Shown: piece after piece, positions 26,496 through 31,338 of the stretch
Numbering within the stretch: the first letter of the stretch is position 1
Layout: each line of letters begins with the position of its first letter
Made by a program: the position numbers and the translations under genes
Notes under the pieces: generated by a model
What the model was told of the DNA's origin: nothing
What the model saw: the letters and a program-made list of their open reading frames with translations, nothing else
Databases searched by the model: none
Source of the DNA: Escherichia phage vB_ecoS_OzMSK
DNA length: 45,053 bases
Sequence record: PQ659294.1
Direction: 5' to 3' (one strand)

Positions 26496-27461
26496 ATGAG
26501 CTTTAAAGTTTTTACGAGAAATGAGCTAAGCAACGAGGCTTACCACTCTGAGACTGATCACATCTCAGGATCCTCACTTGTCGAGATTATTCAGGGTTCA
26601 CCAGCCAAGTGGAAATTCAAGCAGCGCAATAGCGATAGCAAGGCTCTTAAGTTTGGCACCCTAAGCCACACGATGATTTTAGAGCAAGATGTATTTGATA
26701 AAGAATACCTTCGAGCTACAGACCTTGACGCGATTGAAGGATTAATTACAAGCCAGGCTGGACTGTCGGCAGCACTTAAAAAAAATGGCGTGGCTGGCAC
26801 GTCCGGGAAGGGCTGTAGCGAGCTCGTGGAGATGATGTACAGCTCTGGCGAGGATTGGCCTGTTAAATGGCTAATTGAGCAGCAGGAGAGCGCTCAAGCG
26901 CTTGTGGAGGGTAAGGAGCTAGTTAGTGCCGCTGACTACGATAAAGTTGTGGCTATGCGTGAGGTTCTTTGCAATATACCGGCATATAATGCAATCGTGA
27001 ATAGTGAGACAGCACAAAAAGAGCTATCAATATTCGGTGAGATTCTTGGTGTCGGCGTGAAGATTCGAATTGACCACGTTGACGTTGTTGATGGGGTGGT
27101 AATGATCAACGATTATAAAACTACCGCAGACGCAAGCCCGGAAGGGTTTGGTAAATCGGCATTCTCGCACGGATATCTTGCAAAAATGGCATTGCAGCGA
27201 GATCTGTTTGTGAAGGCATTTAACGAGAAGCGCAAGGTTGTTGTGGGATTACTGGCACAGGAGAAGGTAGAGCCATACTTGCCAATGCGATACACGCTAA
27301 CAGATGAACAGCTACGAATCGGTAGATTGCAGTATCTTGAGGCGCTTGCCACTTACAAGAAGTGCAAGGAGCTTGATATCTGGCCTGGCTACTCAAATGG
27401 CATTACAGAGCAAGAGCTATTGGTTCCTGAGTGGGCATTAAAACAATACAAAGAAATCTAA
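26496..27461 (+). CDS. PD-(D/E)XK-type exonuclease (putative recombination exonuclease)
   Basis: 321 aa; candidate nuclease motif D..INDYK (RIDHVDVVDGVVMINDYKT); immediately upstream of Erf-like and SSB genes. Confidence 0.5.
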   Translation: MSFKVFTRNELSNEAYHSETDHISGSSLVEIIQGSPAKWKFKQRNSDSKALKFGTLSHTMILEQDVFDKEYLRATDLDAIEGLITSQAGLSAALKKNGVAGTSGKGCSELVEMMYSSGEDWPVKWLIEQQESAQALVEGKELVSAADYDKVVAMREVLCNIPAYNAIVNSETAQKELSIFGEILGVGVKIRIDHVDVVDGVVMINDYKTTADASPEGFGKSAFSHGYLAKMALQRDLFVKAFNEKRKVVVGLLAQEKVEPYLPMRYTLTDEQLRIGRLQYLEALATYKKCKELDIWPGYSNGITEQELLVPEWALKQYKEI

Positions 27462-27505
27462 ATAGCACTAATTGCTAAAAACAAAATTGAAAGATTGGGT
27501 ATGAT
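27460..27505 (+). promoter_or_regulatory. class-A promoter-like cassette (AAATAGCACTAATTGCTAAA, then TATGAT)
   Basis: Motif overlaps the upstream stop codon; -10-like hexamer at the conserved spacing. Confidence 0.5.
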
Positions 27506-27536
27506 TACCACATCAACAACGAACGAGGTTAATCTA

Positions 27537-27686
27537 ATGAAAGTCTACATTGTAACGTCACACGATCAATATGATTACGATACAGAAATTGTGTCCGCAT
27601 TCCTTAGTGAAGAACTAGCAAGTGCATTTATTGACAAGTCAATCTTGCCATGCCTAATGATTGAAGAAGTGGAGGTATCTGAGTAA
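27537..27686 (+). CDS. hypothetical protein (49 aa; the track 27495 start lies in the -10 element)
   Basis: ATG 27537 with GAGG RBS at the conserved leader position. Confidence 0.4.
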   Translation: MKVYIVTSHDQYDYDTEIVSAFLSEELASAFIDKSILPCLMIEEVEVSE

Positions 27687-28336
27687 TGCAAATTTCAGAG
27701 TCATGCAAATCAATTTTAAACGCGCTGCACACTGCTAAATCGCTATTCGCAAAGGCTGAAAAGTCTAAGCAGAACTCACACCTTAAGAATAAATACGCTA
27801 CCCTAGAAGACGTTTTGGCGGCCGTTGAGCCTGGACTTGATGAGTGCGGATTGGTGATGTTCCAGAGTGTGCTTGATGATGAACAAACTAATCGCATGAA
27901 GGTTGAGACAAAGCTATTTCACGCAGAGTCAGGAGAATGGGTTAGCTTCTTGATGATTGTACCAATCAGTAAGAATGATGCGCAAGGTTACGGCTCAGCT
28001 TTAACATACGCTCGACGCTACGGAATCACGGCAGCTTTAGGTCTTAGCCAGGCGGATGATGATGGTAATCTAGCAGCTAAAGGTGTTAAAGACTTTAAGA
28101 GAGAACTCGAGAAATGCAATAATCTAGATGAGCTTCGTAATGTATGGAAAGAAGCCAAGCAATCACTTGATGCGGCAGGATGGAAGGTTTTTGAGCCTCA
28201 CATTATCGAGAGAAAAGCAGAAATCGAAGCAAATGCGATGACTGGCTTTAACCCAGCAACACCAAAGAAAGTTGCAGAAAAAAGTAGTCCTGAAGAAAAG
28301 ATTAAAGTAGAATCACAACAAATCGACACGTTCTAA
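27686..28336 (+). CDS. Erf-like single-strand annealing protein (putative)
   Basis: 216 aa; sequence GYGSALTYARRYG resembles ERF-family annealing proteins; sits between exonuclease and SSB. Confidence 0.5.
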   Translation: MQISESCKSILNALHTAKSLFAKAEKSKQNSHLKNKYATLEDVLAAVEPGLDECGLVMFQSVLDDEQTNRMKVETKLFHAESGEWVSFLMIVPISKNDAQGYGSALTYARRYGITAALGLSQADDDGNLAAKGVKDFKRELEKCNNLDELRNVWKEAKQSLDAAGWKVFEPHIIERKAEIEANAMTGFNPATPKKVAEKSSPEEKIKVESQQIDTF

Positions 28337-28377
28337 ATTTAACGGGGCTTCGGCCCCAACAATAGAGAGATAAAAAC

Positions 28378-28812
28378 ATGCACGTAATTACCGGTCAGAT
28401 TCGCCGCGCTCCGTTCACCAAAGAAGGTCAAAACGCCAATGGTAACTGGAAGATGTTTGCGGTTGATTTGAGTGAGAGATACAAGGATAAAGATGGTCAA
28501 ACTCAGTACACAAACTACCGCGCAGTACTTTTCGCCAAAGAGTCGATGCTGGATTGGTATAACGAAGCATTTCAGGAAGGTAAAGTTGTCAGCCTAAGCG
28601 CCGAGAGTTTGTCGGTTGATGTTCGCGATAAAGATGGCAAGACTTACGTTACAGTTAATATGAATAATCCTCGACTGGAATTTAGTCAGCGAGGTGATTC
28701 AGCGACACAACAGCAGATGCAAAACCAACAGCGTCAGCAACAGAAGCAGCAGCAACAACAGCGACAACAGCCACAACAGCAAAGTCAATTTGACGACGAC
28801 ATTCCTTTTTGA
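28378..28812 (+). CDS. ssb: single-stranded DNA-binding protein
   Basis: OB-fold-like N-terminal region, Gln-rich linker and acidic C-terminal tip DDDIPF typical of bacterial-type SSBs. Confidence 0.8.
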   Translation: MHVITGQIRRAPFTKEGQNANGNWKMFAVDLSERYKDKDGQTQYTNYRAVLFAKESMLDWYNEAFQEGKVVSLSAESLSVDVRDKDGKTYVTVNMNNPRLEFSQRGDSATQQQMQNQQRQQQKQQQQQRQQPQQQSQFDDDIPF

Positions 28813-28823
28813 TGTAAAATATA

Positions 28824-28846
28824 AAGCCCCTTTCGGGGCTTTTTTA
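28824..28846. terminator. bidirectional terminator (AAAGCCCCTTTCGGGGCTTTTTT)
   Basis: GC hairpin flanked by A-run and T-run, between convergent ssb and tail fibre genes. Confidence 0.7.
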
Positions 28847-28847
28847 T

Positions 28848-31298
28848 TTAATAAATATTTACATCTGGAGAAATTCCAACGCAAGTCCAGCGCGAGAACT
28901 TGGCATCATAAACGAATGACATTCCAATTTGTCTCCCCTCAGATGGAGTTGTGAATGAGCCAACTCTAAACTTATTGCTAAATGAAACGGATGGACGCCG
29001 GCCGCCTGAAAGGTTGTAAATTATGAAGTCTATCCTCTGTGCATCTCTTGCGTTATCCTGAACATCAATAACTACAGGACTTGAATCAATTACAACGGTT
29101 GCAAGACTTGTTCTTAGTGGGTTAAATAGAATACTACCACCAGATAGCTGAACCCTTTTTTGAACGGGGTTAGAAGAATCCGTGTACAACCCTGTGTTTA
29201 TATTATACAAAGCCTCCCATGAATTCAGTTTTGAGTCATCAATCACTGTTGCATGCTGCCCAAATAGTATAGTCCCTTCTACATGGTTTCCTGAAGCTCC
29301 ATTATAAAAATCAAAACCAGAAGCTGATCCACCAACAAACCTATTAGCTCTAGCTCCGTTAACTTGAATTGATGGAGACTGAAAACCTGACTTCAGGCCA
29401 TTGAACAAGTTTCCTGTCGCCGTCTTCCTAAGAACGACGTCACCACCAGAGTTGACCTCAAGGTCGCAACCAATAACAGTGTTAGTTACTGCTGTTATGC
29501 CTAGGTCTGACTCATGACCGAAAGAAAACCCATACTTATTTCCCTCGCTGGTTCCACCAATAAATGTCGTATTACTGCAGAATGTAGCCTCAATTCCTGA
29601 TTCTGTTACATGCTCGCAAGTTGGGTTAATAAAAAGATCTGCAGATGTGCCGCGGAAGTTCACAGCGCCAGCCTCTGCGTCAATTAATATGCCGTACGTA
29701 GGCGTCGTTGTGAAGGTCTCAACGTTACCAGAGCACACAAAGTTATTATGCACGCATAGCTGAGTCCACCAGCAGTGTAAACCAGCCCTTCTAATGTTCG
29801 TAGCCATTAGGTTGTCAAAGCATGATGATATGACACCCCTTAATGAAAAGCCATCACTAGCATACCCATTCCCATCGACAATGATGTTGCTCATATATGA
29901 GTTGTATGCCCAATAATCTAGGTTTACATCCCTATGATCCATTTGGATGACGTAATCATGAGGTCCGCTAGTTAGTGAGATTCTTGCGCCTTTCTCACCG
30001 ATAATTGTTGCTGGCCTCAGAAAGTTTAATGGCTGAGATGTAAGATAATTACCTTTAGGAATATGTATAGCAATAGCGTTGTTTCTAGATGCCTCAACAG
30101 CGGCAAGCAATGCCTGAGTATCATCTGTTACACCATCACCAACAGCGCCAAAGTCCTTCTTAATATCGACATGAGTAAGTAAAGCGTTTACCTCTGGCTT
30201 TGAGTAAACATCAAGATTTGTTCTTGCTGCTGACTTATTTGCAACATCAGAGAAATTCAATGATTTTTGAAAAGTCTCATTTTTTGAATAAACATCAAGA
30301 TTTGTTCTTGCTTCTGACTTATTTGCAACATCAGAGAAATTCAATGATTTTTGAAAAGTCTCATTTTTTGAATAAACATCAAGTAAGTTTCTAGCCCTCG
30401 ATGCCGTAGCTCCACCTCCGGACTTGCCAGCCTCAACCATCACCATTTCCCTACCTGGTGCATAAACCCTGCTTCCGGGCGCTCCCACAAACTGAATGTA
30501 AATCTCCCTGCTATACTGGTTGCTTGTTGAAGATTGGCCTACAACTCGCAAGGAGTGCGTGGTTGTATTGCTTGACTTTGATATTACCTGAATGCATAAA
30601 GCAGCAATTGATGTTCCAAATGTTGAGATTATGTCATTTGGAGCATTTATCATTGATGAAACGTTAACCATATAAAGGCCACCGGATTTAAAAACAAATT
30701 CCTGCCAATCAAAATTGCTTATCAATGGCGTAGTGTCTGTCGCCAATCCATATCCGGCAAGAGTTACCAACGTTCCGGCATCCCCGGCGTTATTAATTGC
30801 TTTAATCGTCTGATCTCTTGCTGCAGTGGTCGTGTCTCTTGCACTAATAGCAGTAGCGGCGCTCTCTTCGGCAGCAATCTGGCTAGCAAGAGCCTCAGCA
30901 GCTCCAGTGGTGGATTGTTTTGCAAGCTGCTCGAAGAGAGGCCAGTCGAAAGTGTCTTGACCAATAAATTGCAACAATCCTTCGATTGATGTCTCCTTTG
31001 ACTGGTAGTAACGCAAAGTCTCTGCTACATCCTGAGCCAACCCCTGAACGGTAATTCCATCGTGCGCAAGAATTGCATAACCAGTTCCGGAAGGAACAGT
31101 TTCAGAGTTAGGGTTGTAAACATTAATCTGAGTATCGCTGATGATTTCAGAGATGGTATAAATCTTCAGGGGGCTGGTTTTAAAAATAATGGTTGCACCT
31201 ACGCGAATAAGTGTAAGCGGTGCTTTCCATGTTGTACCCACGCCAGTTACCTCGCCATTTGCGGCCAGCGACGCTGTTCCTAAGTCATAAATTGCCAT
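28848..31298 (-). CDS. lateral tail fibre / tailspike with right-handed beta-helix (pectate-lyase-like) domain
   Basis: 816 aa from ATG 31298 (GGAG RBS); motif DIKKDFGAVGDGVTDDTQAL typical of pectate-lyase-type tailspikes; internal 28-aa tandem repeats. Confidence 0.75.
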   Translation of the reverse strand: MAIYDLGTASLAANGEVTGVGTTWKAPLTLIRVGATIIFKTSPLKIYTISEIISDTQINVYNPNSETVPSGTGYAILAHDGITVQGLAQDVAETLRYYQSKETSIEGLLQFIGQDTFDWPLFEQLAKQSTTGAAEALASQIAAEESAATAISARDTTTAARDQTIKAINNAGDAGTLVTLAGYGLATDTTPLISNFDWQEFVFKSGGLYMVNVSSMINAPNDIISTFGTSIAALCIQVISKSSNTTTHSLRVVGQSSTSNQYSREIYIQFVGAPGSRVYAPGREMVMVEAGKSGGGATASRARNLLDVYSKNETFQKSLNFSDVANKSEARTNLDVYSKNETFQKSLNFSDVANKSAARTNLDVYSKPEVNALLTHVDIKKDFGAVGDGVTDDTQALLAAVEASRNNAIAIHIPKGNYLTSQPLNFLRPATIIGEKGARISLTSGPHDYVIQMDHRDVNLDYWAYNSYMSNIIVDGNGYASDGFSLRGVISSCFDNLMATNIRRAGLHCWWTQLCVHNNFVCSGNVETFTTTPTYGILIDAEAGAVNFRGTSADLFINPTCEHVTESGIEATFCSNTTFIGGTSEGNKYGFSFGHESDLGITAVTNTVIGCDLEVNSGGDVVLRKTATGNLFNGLKSGFQSPSIQVNGARANRFVGGSASGFDFYNGASGNHVEGTILFGQHATVIDDSKLNSWEALYNINTGLYTDSSNPVQKRVQLSGGSILFNPLRTSLATVVIDSSPVVIDVQDNARDAQRIDFIIYNLSGGRRPSVSFSNKFRVGSFTTPSEGRQIGMSFVYDAKFSRWTCVGISPDVNIY
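30199..30385. repeat. 84-bp direct tandem repeat (two copies plus a partial third) inside the tail fibre gene
   Basis: AAACATCAAG recurs at 30206, 30290 and 30374; copies differ at about one position; encodes ARTNLDVYSKNETFQKSLNFSDVANKSE twice. Confidence 0.85.
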
Positions 31299-31318
31299 TG
31301 TGTAAATTCTCCATTTGT

Positions 31319-31338
31319 AAAATAGCACGAATTGCTAA
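31319..31338 (+). promoter_or_regulatory. class-A motif copy in plus orientation, 21 nt upstream of the minus-strand tail fibre start
   Basis: AAATAGCACGAATTGCTAAG; the only copy oriented against the adjacent downstream gene. Confidence 0.4.

What the first reader, a model, noticed from the sequence alone, without database searches (positions are those of the whole stretch)
28690..28812. Gln-rich low-complexity linker in the SSB
The SSB linker before the acidic tip is almost pure Q with interspersed R/K (QQQMQNQQRQQQKQQQQQRQQPQQQSQ), encoded by CAG/CAA-rich DNA. This differs from the Gly/Pro-rich linkers of host SSBs and could affect condensation behaviour or be prone to length variation.
Basis: seen in the sequence. 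Interest (0 to 1): 0.25.

Follow-up and report, generated by a model that had tools for sequence, protein, structure and literature searches.

The report
Glutamine-rich flexible linker of phage SSB
The CAG/CAA-rich stretch encodes the floppy, almost all-glutamine tether that joins the DNA-binding core of a T1/Rtp-type phage single-stranded-DNA-binding protein to its partner-recruiting acidic tail; it is real and evolves fast in length and order, but it is an ordinary example of a known kind of protein segment.

Summary
Confirmed. The window is Escherichia phage Msk, an Rtp-like member of the Drexlerviridae. ORF 28378..28812 (+, 144 aa) has three parts. Residues 1-104 are a confidently predicted OB fold that is remotely but significantly related to bacterial SSBs. 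Residues 106-137 (28693..28788) are a disordered linker with 20 glutamines in 32 residues. The tip, FDDDIPF, is identical to the E. coli SSB tip.

Among 120 close relatives (OB domain 92-100% identical) there are 108 different linkers, 26-36 aa long, all 53-72% Q. One 96%-identical relative carries an in-frame 15-nt deletion inside the tract.

Residue order is almost free, but composition is held. Synonymous sites in the OB part are saturated, and a neutral simulation predicts Q falling to about 0.1, yet relatives keep 0.54-0.71. Acidic and hydrophobic residues are excluded.

The DNA is not a perfect triplet repeat: CAA and CAG are mixed at random, so simple codon slippage is not supported.

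Compared with the host linker (G 29%, Q 19%, P 15%), this one lacks glycine and aromatic residues. An effect on condensation remains untested.

Verdict: a compositional extreme of the known SSB disordered-linker type. Low interest.

The parts
28378..28812 (+). ssb gene of phage Msk (144 aa plus stop), the homologue of Rtp49 and T1 gp27
   Evidence: ORF. PHROG 44 'single strand DNA binding protein', E=2.4e-29. A family profile hits Klebsiella and E. coli SSB structures at E=2.6e-10 and 2e-6. hhalign against EcSSB gives probability 98.5%. Annotated as SSB in Rtp, SU57, RobRod40, EC3a and Tls.
28378..28689 (+). OB-fold ssDNA-binding core (aa 1-104)
   Evidence: In the AlphaFold2 model, pLDDT is 96-98 over the 10-residue blocks of residues 1-100, and the last strand ends at residue 103. 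The model has strands with one helix at 55-64. The top Foldseek PDB hits are all bacterial-type SSB or PriB. In the hhalign alignment Y35, Y47 and F52 align with EcSSB W40, W54 and F60. Y47 is invariant in the family. dN/dS is 0.01-0.03.
28693..28788 (+). Intrinsically disordered linker, GDSATQQQMQNQQRQQQKQQQQQRQQPQQQSQ (aa 106-137). The Q core runs from 28708.
   Evidence: 20 of 32 residues are Q, with CAA:CAG 10:10. pLDDT is 50-64 with no secondary structure. It is hypervariable in order and length but constant in composition among relatives.
28789..28809 (+). SSB C-terminal acidic tip, FDDDIPF
   Evidence: Identical to the last 7 residues of E. coli SSB (alignments). IPF is kept in all 120 relatives, and the acidic positions vary among N, E, D and S.
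28823..28842 (.). Bidirectional intrinsic terminator between the ssb gene and the convergent tail-fibre gene (28848..31328, - strand)
   Evidence: An 8-bp GC-rich stem with T-runs on both strands. Conserved in Rtp, FP, SU57, DTL and T1, and annotated as a terminator in SU57, EC3a and T1.
27686..28336 (+). Erf-family single-strand annealing protein, immediately upstream
   Evidence: Pfam ERF E=6.9e-28. PHROG 155 E=4.2e-48. The Erf-then-SSB gene order is kept in T1, Rtp and HK544, and in Tls with a gene annotated recT/recombinase in the Erf position.
26496..27461 (+). Exonuclease VIII-like PD-(D/E)XK nuclease, the first gene of the recombination module
   Evidence: Pfam DUF3799 E=7.1e-21. PHROG 412 'exonuclease VIII' E=4.3e-99.

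Best explanation
The CAR-rich DNA at 28693..28788 encodes the intrinsically disordered linker of a T1/Rtp-type phage single-stranded-DNA-binding protein. The protein has the standard three-part SSB layout. An N-terminal OB fold binds ssDNA. A flexible tail follows. A terminal FDDDIPF peptide, identical to the host SSB tip, docks partner proteins.

The linker most likely works as a hydrophilic, slightly basic, non-folding tether. It sets how far the tip can reach, both back onto its own OB fold and out to partners. The probable partners are the phage Erf annealase and exonuclease encoded just upstream, and the host proteins that bind the SSB tip.

Selection acts on the linker's composition: about 60% Q, 1-4 K/R, a few P, and no acidic, hydrophobic or aromatic residues. 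Selection also acts on its approximate length (23-36 aa). It does not act on residue order, so the segment drifts quickly through substitutions and multi-codon in-frame indels.

Shown here: the architecture, the predicted disorder, the homology to SSBs, the variability and the compositional constraint. Inferred: ssDNA binding, the identity of the partners and the tether role.
For: Architecture:
- In the AlphaFold2 model, residues 1-104 form a high-confidence OB fold, and residues 105-144 are coil with pLDDT 50-64.
- The best Foldseek hits are all bacterial SSB or PriB.
- A family profile hits the Klebsiella SSB structure 7f2n at E=2.6e-10, E. coli SSB 1eqq at 2e-6 and yeast Rim1 at 2.5e-5.
- hhalign against EcSSB gives 98.5% probability, and aromatic residues Y35, Y47 and F52 align with the DNA-stacking residues W40, W54 and F60.
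- The tip is identical to the EcSSB tip.

Context:
- The exoVIII - DUF7336 - Erf - SSB module is followed by a terminator.
- The same Erf-then-SSB adjacency is seen in T1, Rtp and the lambdoid phage HK544, and in Tls with a gene annotated recT/recombinase in that position.

Variability:
- There are 108 distinct linkers among 120 relatives whose OB domain is 92-100% identical. Linker length is 26-36 aa.
- Mean pairwise identity is 0.95 for the OB domain and 0.67 for the linker. Composition-matched shuffles give 0.56.
- 77% of pairs with >=98% identical OB domains differ in linker length.
- A 96%-identical relative has a 15-nt in-frame deletion inside the tract. Another has 3 nonsynonymous changes in the linker against 0 in the OB domain.

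Compositional constraint:
- Q is 53-72% in every linker.
- OB-domain dS against named relatives is 0.7 to >3, with dN/dS 0.01-0.03.
- A neutral simulation at those distances predicts Q of 0.08-0.16, with a 97.5th percentile of at most 0.28. The observed values are 0.54-0.71.
- Among the single-step neighbours of CAA/CAG, P (226), R (148), H (79) and K (77) are common, while E (4) and L (4) are almost absent.

Precedent:
- The tip of a phage SSB is needed to stimulate its neighbouring annealase in HK620 (PMC5928155).
- E. coli SSB linkers are low-complexity Q/G/P-rich tethers whose length and composition tune tip availability (PMC12143593).
Against: - No experiment exists on this protein or its family. 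ssDNA binding, oligomeric state and partners are all inferred.
- Neither Pfam SSB (PF00436) nor NCBIfam TIGR00621 reaches its threshold with the single sequence. Pfam finds nothing; TIGR00621 scores 23 bits against a cut-off of 54.
- EcSSB W88 and the tetramer residue H55 have no counterpart in the hhalign alignment, so the DNA-wrapping mode and oligomer may differ.
- Strong retention of about 60% Q suggests glutamine does something more specific than 'any flexible spacer'. The wider family manages with a median of 27% Q.
- The HK620 SSB used as a functional precedent is not homologous to this family (hhalign probability 0.15%).
Confidence: 0.75

Rival explanations
1. The Q-rich linker is primarily a self-association module. 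Glutamine side-chain amide contacts between tails of neighbouring SSB oligomers would drive cooperative coating of ssDNA or liquid-like condensates. These might be immiscible with host SSB, because the linker composition differs while the tip is the same.
For: - Composition, not order, is conserved, and Q is held at 53-72% across saturated synonymous divergence. That is more than a mere spacer would need.
- The clade is the Q-richest of its family: 0.62 against a family median of 0.27 and maximum of 0.50.
- The EcSSB linker is required for phase separation and for non-nearest-neighbour cooperativity, and amide-amide contacts are proposed to drive both (10.1101/2022.01.17.476650; PMC7584906).
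- SSB C-terminal regions are a known class of bacterial prion-like domains (PMC6400439).
Against: - The same literature attributes EcSSB condensation mainly to glycine backbone amides and to aromatic or basic 'stickers'. A W136D change abolishes it, and the N/Q-rich Plasmodium SSB tail does not phase separate.
- The Msk linker has 1 G and no aromatic residue.
- The linker is short, at 32 aa. Its Q runs are at most 5 long and are interrupted by R, K and P, which oppose amyloid-type polyQ association.
Confidence: 0.15
2. The tract is selectively neutral filler. Replication slippage on CAG/CAA repeats would create and maintain it, with no constraint beyond keeping the reading frame and the tip.
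For: - Residue order is close to random: linker identity is 0.67 against 0.56 for shuffles.
- Length differs in most near-identical pairs.
- In-frame indels lie inside the tract.
- An 18-nt tandem duplication is visible in phage vB_EcoS-26174I.
Against: - The order of CAA and CAG is indistinguishable from random. Adjacent identical Q codons number 72 observed against 77.8 expected, and the longest run in Msk is 2. There is therefore no signature of codon-unit slippage.
- Repeats found by TRF are imperfect, with 72-80% matches.
- Neutral drift at the observed synonymous distances would cut Q to about 0.1 and introduce 6-8 hydrophobic residues. The observed Q is 0.54-0.71 and hydrophobic residues are under 1%.
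- E and L are 20- to 50-fold rarer than the equally accessible K and P.
- Length stays within 23-36 aa, while the wider family spans 18-117 aa.
Confidence: 0.06
3. The protein is not a working SSB. It would be a decoy that displays the host SSB tip on a small scaffold, to titrate or redirect host SSB-interacting proteins during infection. The Q-rich stretch would simply present the tip.
For: - The tip is identical to the host's.
- The OB domain is too divergent for the Pfam and NCBIfam SSB models.
- EcSSB W88 and H55 have no counterpart.
Against: - The OB core is under very strong purifying selection, with dN/dS 0.01-0.03.
- It keeps aromatic residues at three of the four EcSSB DNA-stacking positions, including the family-invariant Y47.
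- The gene sits in a recombination module beside Erf in several phage lineages, as expected for a genuine ssDNA-handling partner.
Confidence: 0.04

Closest known systems
E. coli SSB (P0AGE0; PDB 1EQQ/1EYG): OB core, intrinsically disordered linker (IDL) and SSB-Ct tip
   Same: The three-part architecture is the same. The last 7 residues, FDDDIPF, are identical. The OB fold is related at profile level (E=2e-6; hhalign 98.5%), with aromatic residues at the positions of W40, W54 and F60. The linker is low-complexity, disordered and already Q-rich in the host, at 19%.
   Different: The linker is 32 aa here, against about 56-59 aa in the host. Q is 62% against 19%, G 3% against 29%, and P 3% against 15%. 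There are no aromatic residues, whereas EcSSB has W136 and F148. EcSSB W88 and H55 have no counterpart. The single sequence fails the Pfam and TIGR00621 thresholds.
Rtp49 and T1 gp27 (ST27): putative SSBs of the Drexlerviridae
   Same: They are direct homologues. Their OB domains are 94% (Rtp) and about 50% (T1-type) identical to Msk's. They occupy the same position after Erf and before the convergent tail-fibre gene, and they have Q-rich linkers and an IPF tip.
   Different: The exact linker differs. Rtp has 31 aa with a Q12 run. T1 has GQSNQQQRAPQQQQRSQQQSQPQPNQQST. Tls has a Q/P-rich linker that ends with the host-like NEPPMDFDDDIPF. None has been studied biochemically, and T1 gp27 is still annotated as 'hypothetical protein'.
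Phage HK620 SSB, the partner of the Sak4 annealase (Hutinet et al. 2018, PMC5928155)
   Same: It is a phage 'distant SSB' encoded next to a single-strand annealing protein. Its C-terminal six residues are required to load and stimulate the annealase. This is the best experimental analogue for the proposed role of the tip on its tether.
   Different: It is not homologous to the Msk family (hhalign probability 0.15%). Its tip is NDYPPF, and its partner is Sak4 rather than Erf.
Prion-like / N,Q-rich C-terminal regions of bacterial SSBs (Harrison 2019, PMC6400439; Campylobacter hominis SSB, Fleming et al. 2019, cited in PMC7584906)
   Same: It is an SSB linker strongly enriched in Q/N, a composition class already catalogued in 802 SSB orthologues.
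   Different: The Msk tract has only 27-32 residues, with Q runs of at most 5 interrupted by R, K and P. That is shorter than the windows used by prion predictors.

Membership tests
Bacterial-type SSB (Pfam PF00436 / TIGR00621) | N-terminal OB fold of the SSB/PriB type | tested here: met
   The AlphaFold2 model has pLDDT 96-98 over the 10-residue blocks of residues 1-100, with the last strand ending at residue 103. The top 50 Foldseek PDB hits are SSB or PriB, apart from one trypanosome RNA-editing complex chain, with probability 0.99-1.00 and TM 0.4-0.58.
Bacterial-type SSB (Pfam PF00436 / TIGR00621) | Sequence match to the curated family models above their thresholds | tested here: not met
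   There is no PF00436 hit. TIGR00621 scores 23.2 bits against a cut-off of 53.95. Homology is recovered only at profile level: hmmsearch of the family profile against PDB SSBs gives E=2.6e-10, and hhalign gives 98.5%. The protein is therefore a divergent relative, not a member of the curated family as defined.
Bacterial-type SSB (Pfam PF00436 / TIGR00621) | Aromatic ssDNA-stacking residues (EcSSB W40, W54, F60, W88) | tested here: inconclusive
   In the hhalign alignment Y35, Y47 and F52 align with W40, W54 and F60, and Y47 is invariant in the family. W88 aligns with R83. Three of the four positions are aromatic. The alignment is remote.
Bacterial-type SSB (Pfam PF00436 / TIGR00621) | C-terminal acidic tip (D-D-D-I-P-F) that binds partner proteins | tested here: met
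   The sequence FDDDIPF is identical to the EcSSB tip. Binding of partners is not testable with these tools.
Bacterial-type SSB (Pfam PF00436 / TIGR00621) | Homotetramer; high-affinity ssDNA binding | not testable with these tools
   Only single-chain prediction is available. The EcSSB tetramer residue H55 falls in a gap in the alignment.
SSB intrinsically disordered linker (IDL) | Disordered, low-complexity segment between the OB core and the tip | tested here: met
   pLDDT is 50-64 with no secondary structure for residues 105-144. Q is 62%.
SSB intrinsically disordered linker (IDL) | Poorly conserved in sequence and length among orthologues while core and tip are conserved | tested here: met
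   There are 108 distinct linkers among 120 relatives, 26-36 aa long. Mean pairwise identity is 0.67 for the linker against 0.95 for the OB domain, and IPF is invariant.
Prion-like / polyQ domain | Long Q/N-rich core (about 60 residues in PLAAC) or a long uninterrupted Q run | tested here: not met
   The Q core is 27 residues and the longest Q run is 5 in Msk (3-11 among the 120 relatives). It is interrupted by R, K and P. PLAAC itself could not be run.
Simple-sequence contingency locus (slippage-prone trinucleotide repeat) | Perfect tandem repeats of one unit, with length changes in repeat units among near-identical strains | tested here: not met
   TRF finds only imperfect repeats, with period 9 or 12 and 72-80% matches. 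CAA and CAG are randomly interleaved, and the longest run of one codon is 2. The observed indels are 15 and 18 nt and are in frame.

The most novel reading that the evidence does not exclude
The near-pure-glutamine linker, stripped of the glycine and aromatic residues that drive host SSB condensation, might be an adaptation that lets the phage SSB form its own assemblies on phage ssDNA without mixing with host SSB. These assemblies could be cooperative coats or condensates. Because the tip is host-identical, they would still recruit the host's SSB-interacting enzymes and the phage Erf and exonuclease. The result would be a private recombination and replication compartment defined by linker composition.
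Probability: 0.1. Interest if true: 0.6.

Novelty: new member of a known kind. Interest (0 to 1): 0.2.

Why it matters
The practical value is modest. The finding supplies a natural, well-sampled series of SSB linkers: more than 100 variants, 23-36 aa long, at about 60% Q and with no Gly or aromatic residues, all on an almost invariant OB core and tip. That series could be used to test current ideas about how linker composition and length tune SSB cooperativity, tip availability and condensation.

It also shows that the T1/Rtp 'SSB' is a genuine, though divergent, OB-fold SSB relative that the Pfam and NCBIfam models miss and that T1 still lists as hypothetical. Its conserved pairing with Erf is relevant to the choice of SSB partners for Erf-based recombineering.

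Nothing here challenges current understanding.

Tried and rejected
- A single-sequence search of PDB sequences found nothing meaningful (best E=0.16). Only the family profile reached SSBs.
- Pfam gave no SSB domain, and NCBIfam gave only a sub-threshold hit.
- I tested whether the biochemically studied HK620 SSB belongs to this family, so that its data could be transferred. It does not (hhalign probability 0.15%), so it is cited only as an analogue.
- I tested for codon-level slippage by permuting the CAA/CAG labels. There is neither an excess nor a deficit of identical adjacent codons.
- The enrichment of CAA in the linker relative to genome usage is not significant for Msk alone (Fisher P=0.08).
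- The overlapping ORFs created by the repeat are 28694..28954 (+, 86 aa) and 28699..28884 (-, 61 aa, poly-Leu). I judged them by-products of the CAR tract and did not pursue them.
- Literature searches for a described glutamine-rich phage SSB linker, and a search of the Msk genome paper, found no specific treatment.

Full report
**Identity of the window and the gene.** The window is 100% identical to Escherichia phage Msk (MW057918.1, 45,053 bp), an Rtp-like siphovirus of the Drexlerviridae. The finding lies at the 3' end of ORF 28378..28812 (+, 144 aa). Upstream on the same strand are three genes: an exonuclease VIII-like PD-(D/E)XK nuclease (26496..27461), a small DUF7336 gene, and an Erf-family annealing protein (27686..28336). 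Downstream, a bidirectional intrinsic terminator (28823..28842) separates the ORF from a convergent tail-fibre gene.

Translating 28690..28812 gives RGDSATQQQMQNQQRQQQKQQQQQRQQPQQQSQFDDDIPF*.
- The linker proper (aa 106-137, 28693..28788) has 20 Q in 32 residues, encoded by 10 CAA and 10 CAG.
- Q is 3.95% of residues in the phage's long ORFs, so the binomial P is about 1e-20.
- It is the only Q-rich window in any of the six frames of the genome.
- At the DNA level it is not a clean triplet repeat. TRF reports only imperfect period-9 and period-12 arrays with 72-80% matches.

**Is the protein an SSB?** A single-sequence search finds no Pfam SSB domain, only a sub-threshold TIGR00621 hit (23 bits against a cut-off of 54), and no PDB relative. 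PHROG 44 ('single strand DNA binding protein') does match, at E=2.4e-29.

An exhaustive search with the OB part alone found just 77 cluster representatives in 1.8 billion proteins. This is a small, distinct family.

Several results tie the family to canonical SSBs:
- A profile built from 55 members (A1) hits Klebsiella SSB 7f2n (E=2.6e-10), E. coli SSB 1eqq (2e-6) and yeast Rim1 (2.5e-5).
- hhalign against E. coli SSB gives 98.5% probability. Y35, Y47 and F52 align with the DNA-stacking residues W40, W54 and F60. W88 and H55 have no counterpart. Y47 is invariant in the family.
- In the AlphaFold2 model, residues 1-104 form a high-confidence OB fold (pLDDT 96-98 over the 10-residue blocks to residue 100), and residues 105-144 are coil with pLDDT 50-64.
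- The best Foldseek matches in the PDB are all bacterial-type SSBs or PriB.
- The last seven residues are identical to the E. coli SSB tip.
- The gene is the homologue of Rtp49 and T1 gp27.

I conclude that it is a divergent but genuine SSB-type protein with the canonical layout of OB core, disordered linker and tip.

The 120 closest protein clusters have OB domains 92-100% identical to Msk's (mean 96%). Between them they carry 108 different linkers, 26-36 aa long with a median of 31. IPF is invariant at the C-terminus, and the acidic positions before it vary.

Named phages span 23 aa (AugustePiccard) to 33 aa (SU57).

Mean pairwise identity is 0.95 for the OB domain and 0.67 for the linker. 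That is barely above the 0.56 obtained when each linker is shuffled. In addition, 77% of pairs with >=98% identical OB domains differ in linker length.

The pattern holds at the shortest distances:
- A metagenomic relative (P0007) differs from Msk by an in-frame 15-nt deletion that removes RQQQK inside the tract.
- Another relative (P0002) has three nucleotide changes in the linker, all nonsynonymous, against two synonymous changes in the 315-nt OB part.

The refutation condition ('length and composition identical across relatives') is therefore not met for length or sequence. Composition, however, is strikingly constant.

**Composition is under selection; order is not.**
- Every linker is 53-72% Q.
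- Between Msk and the named relatives, the OB-domain dS is 0.7 to >3 (saturated), with dN/dS of 0.01-0.03.
- A simulation let the Msk linker drift at such distances and rejected only stop codons. It predicts a Q fraction of 0.08-0.16 (97.5th percentile at most 0.28) and 6-8 hydrophobic residues. The observed Q fraction is 0.54-0.71, and hydrophobic residues are under 1%.
- Within the Q core, the non-Q residues are mostly single-step neighbours of CAA/CAG. P (226), R (148), H (79) and K (77) are common. The equally accessible E (4) and L (4) are almost absent.

The linker is thus kept hydrophilic, neutral to slightly basic (net charge +1 is the mode), and free of aromatic residues.

**How length changes arise.** Permuting the CAA/CAG labels shows that their order is random. 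Adjacent identical Q codons number 72 observed against 77.8 expected, and the longest run in Msk is 2. There is therefore no signature of single-codon slippage. The indels actually seen are multi-codon: the 15-nt deletion and an 18-nt tandem duplication (CAA CCT CAG CGG CAA CAG) in vB_EcoS-26174I. Length variation is real, but calling the tract 'slippage-prone CAG repeat' overstates what the DNA shows.

**How unusual is it?**
- E. coli SSB residues 113-171, as computed, are G 29%, Q 19% and P 15% and include two aromatic residues. This agrees with the counts given in PMC12143593.
- Across the wider phage family, linkers have a median of 27% Q (range 4-50%) and a median length of 42 aa (range 18-117). 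Ten of 35 carry a GWGxPQQP-like motif matching the host linker around W136.
- The Rtp-like clade is therefore the Q-richest extreme and has lost glycine and aromatic residues. T1 gp27 is also Q-rich, and Tls ends in the host-like NEPPMDFDDDIPF.

N/Q-rich 'prion-like' SSB tails are already catalogued in bacteria (PMC6400439; PMC7584906).

**Mechanism.** The best-supported reading is a flexible tether that presents the host-identical tip to partners, with selection on composition and approximate length. Three observations support it:
- The conserved adjacency of Erf and this SSB type in T1, Rtp and the lambdoid phage HK544, and in Tls with a gene annotated recT/recombinase in that position. HK544 gp31 ends ...SGNSQQQQSSNHQNHPEYDNSIPF.
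- The HK620 precedent, in which the SSB tip is required to stimulate the neighbouring annealase (PMC5928155). That SSB is not homologous to this family.
- Evidence that EcSSB linker length and composition tune tip availability (PMC12143593).

A self-association or condensation role is possible but unproven. Published work assigns EcSSB phase separation mainly to glycine amides and aromatic or basic stickers. It also shows that an N/Q-rich Plasmodium linker does not phase separate.

**Verdict.** It is an extreme-composition member of the well-known class of SSB disordered linkers, in a gene already annotated as a putative SSB in relatives. The Msk genome paper does not discuss it. Interest is low (0.2). 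The most novel reading not excluded is a linker-defined, host-immiscible phage SSB assembly, with a probability of about 0.1.

Noticed in passing
window 28343..28358 (erf-ssb intergenic gap, 28337..28377): A GC-rich hairpin (GGGGC-UUCG-GCCCC) sits between the erf stop codon and the ssb ribosome-binding site, with no T-run after it on the + strand. It is conserved in position across Rtp-like phages. T1 (GGGCGGC-TTAG-GTCGCCC) and Tls (GCGGGGC-GTAA-TGCCCCG) have hairpins of different sequence at the same place. The structure, not the sequence, is therefore kept. It may be an mRNA stability or processing element, or an attenuator that sets the SSB:Erf ratio.
   Followed up: partly
window 28823..28842: A bidirectional intrinsic terminator (AAAGCCCC-TTTC-GGGGCTTT, with T-runs on both strands) is shared by the ssb gene and the convergent tail-fibre gene. 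It is conserved and annotated in SU57, EC3a and T1.
   Followed up: partly
proteins P0121, P0122, P0147, P0155, P0163; Tls locus L003:1501-1926: Members of the same phage OB family from other clades carry linker strings identical to enterobacterial host SSB tails (GGWGQPQQPQ, NEPPMDFDDDIPF). This suggests either exchange of tails between host ssb and phage ssb, or strong convergence on a functional W-containing motif. The Rtp-like clade lacks the motif.
   Followed up: partly
L018:800-1788 (phage HK544): The lambdoid phage HK544 encodes Erf (gp32), followed directly by a 127-aa 'hypothetical protein' (gp31). It is a member of this SSB family, with a short N/Q/S-rich linker and a YDNSIPF tip. 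The Erf-SSB gene pair is therefore conserved beyond the Drexlerviridae and is under-annotated.
   Followed up: partly
window 27495..27686: The DUF7336 ORF is listed from a TTG start as 63 aa. The Pfam match covers residues 15-63, and relatives' gene calls give 49 aa. The likely start is therefore the ATG at 27537.
   Followed up: no
L012:24-398 (phage TR1): In phage TR1 an HNH endonuclease gene is annotated directly upstream of, and overlapping, the ssb start. In the other relatives the gene directly upstream is the Erf/recombinase gene.
   Followed up: no
proteins P0129, P0134, P0126, P0127: Some metagenomic family members have tails that look like frameshifted or truncated readings of the Q-rich region (for example ...NNINKRHKSREVIISSRKH..., or ending at FSQRGEG). 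These are either assembly errors in low-complexity DNA or real tip-less variants.
   Followed up: no
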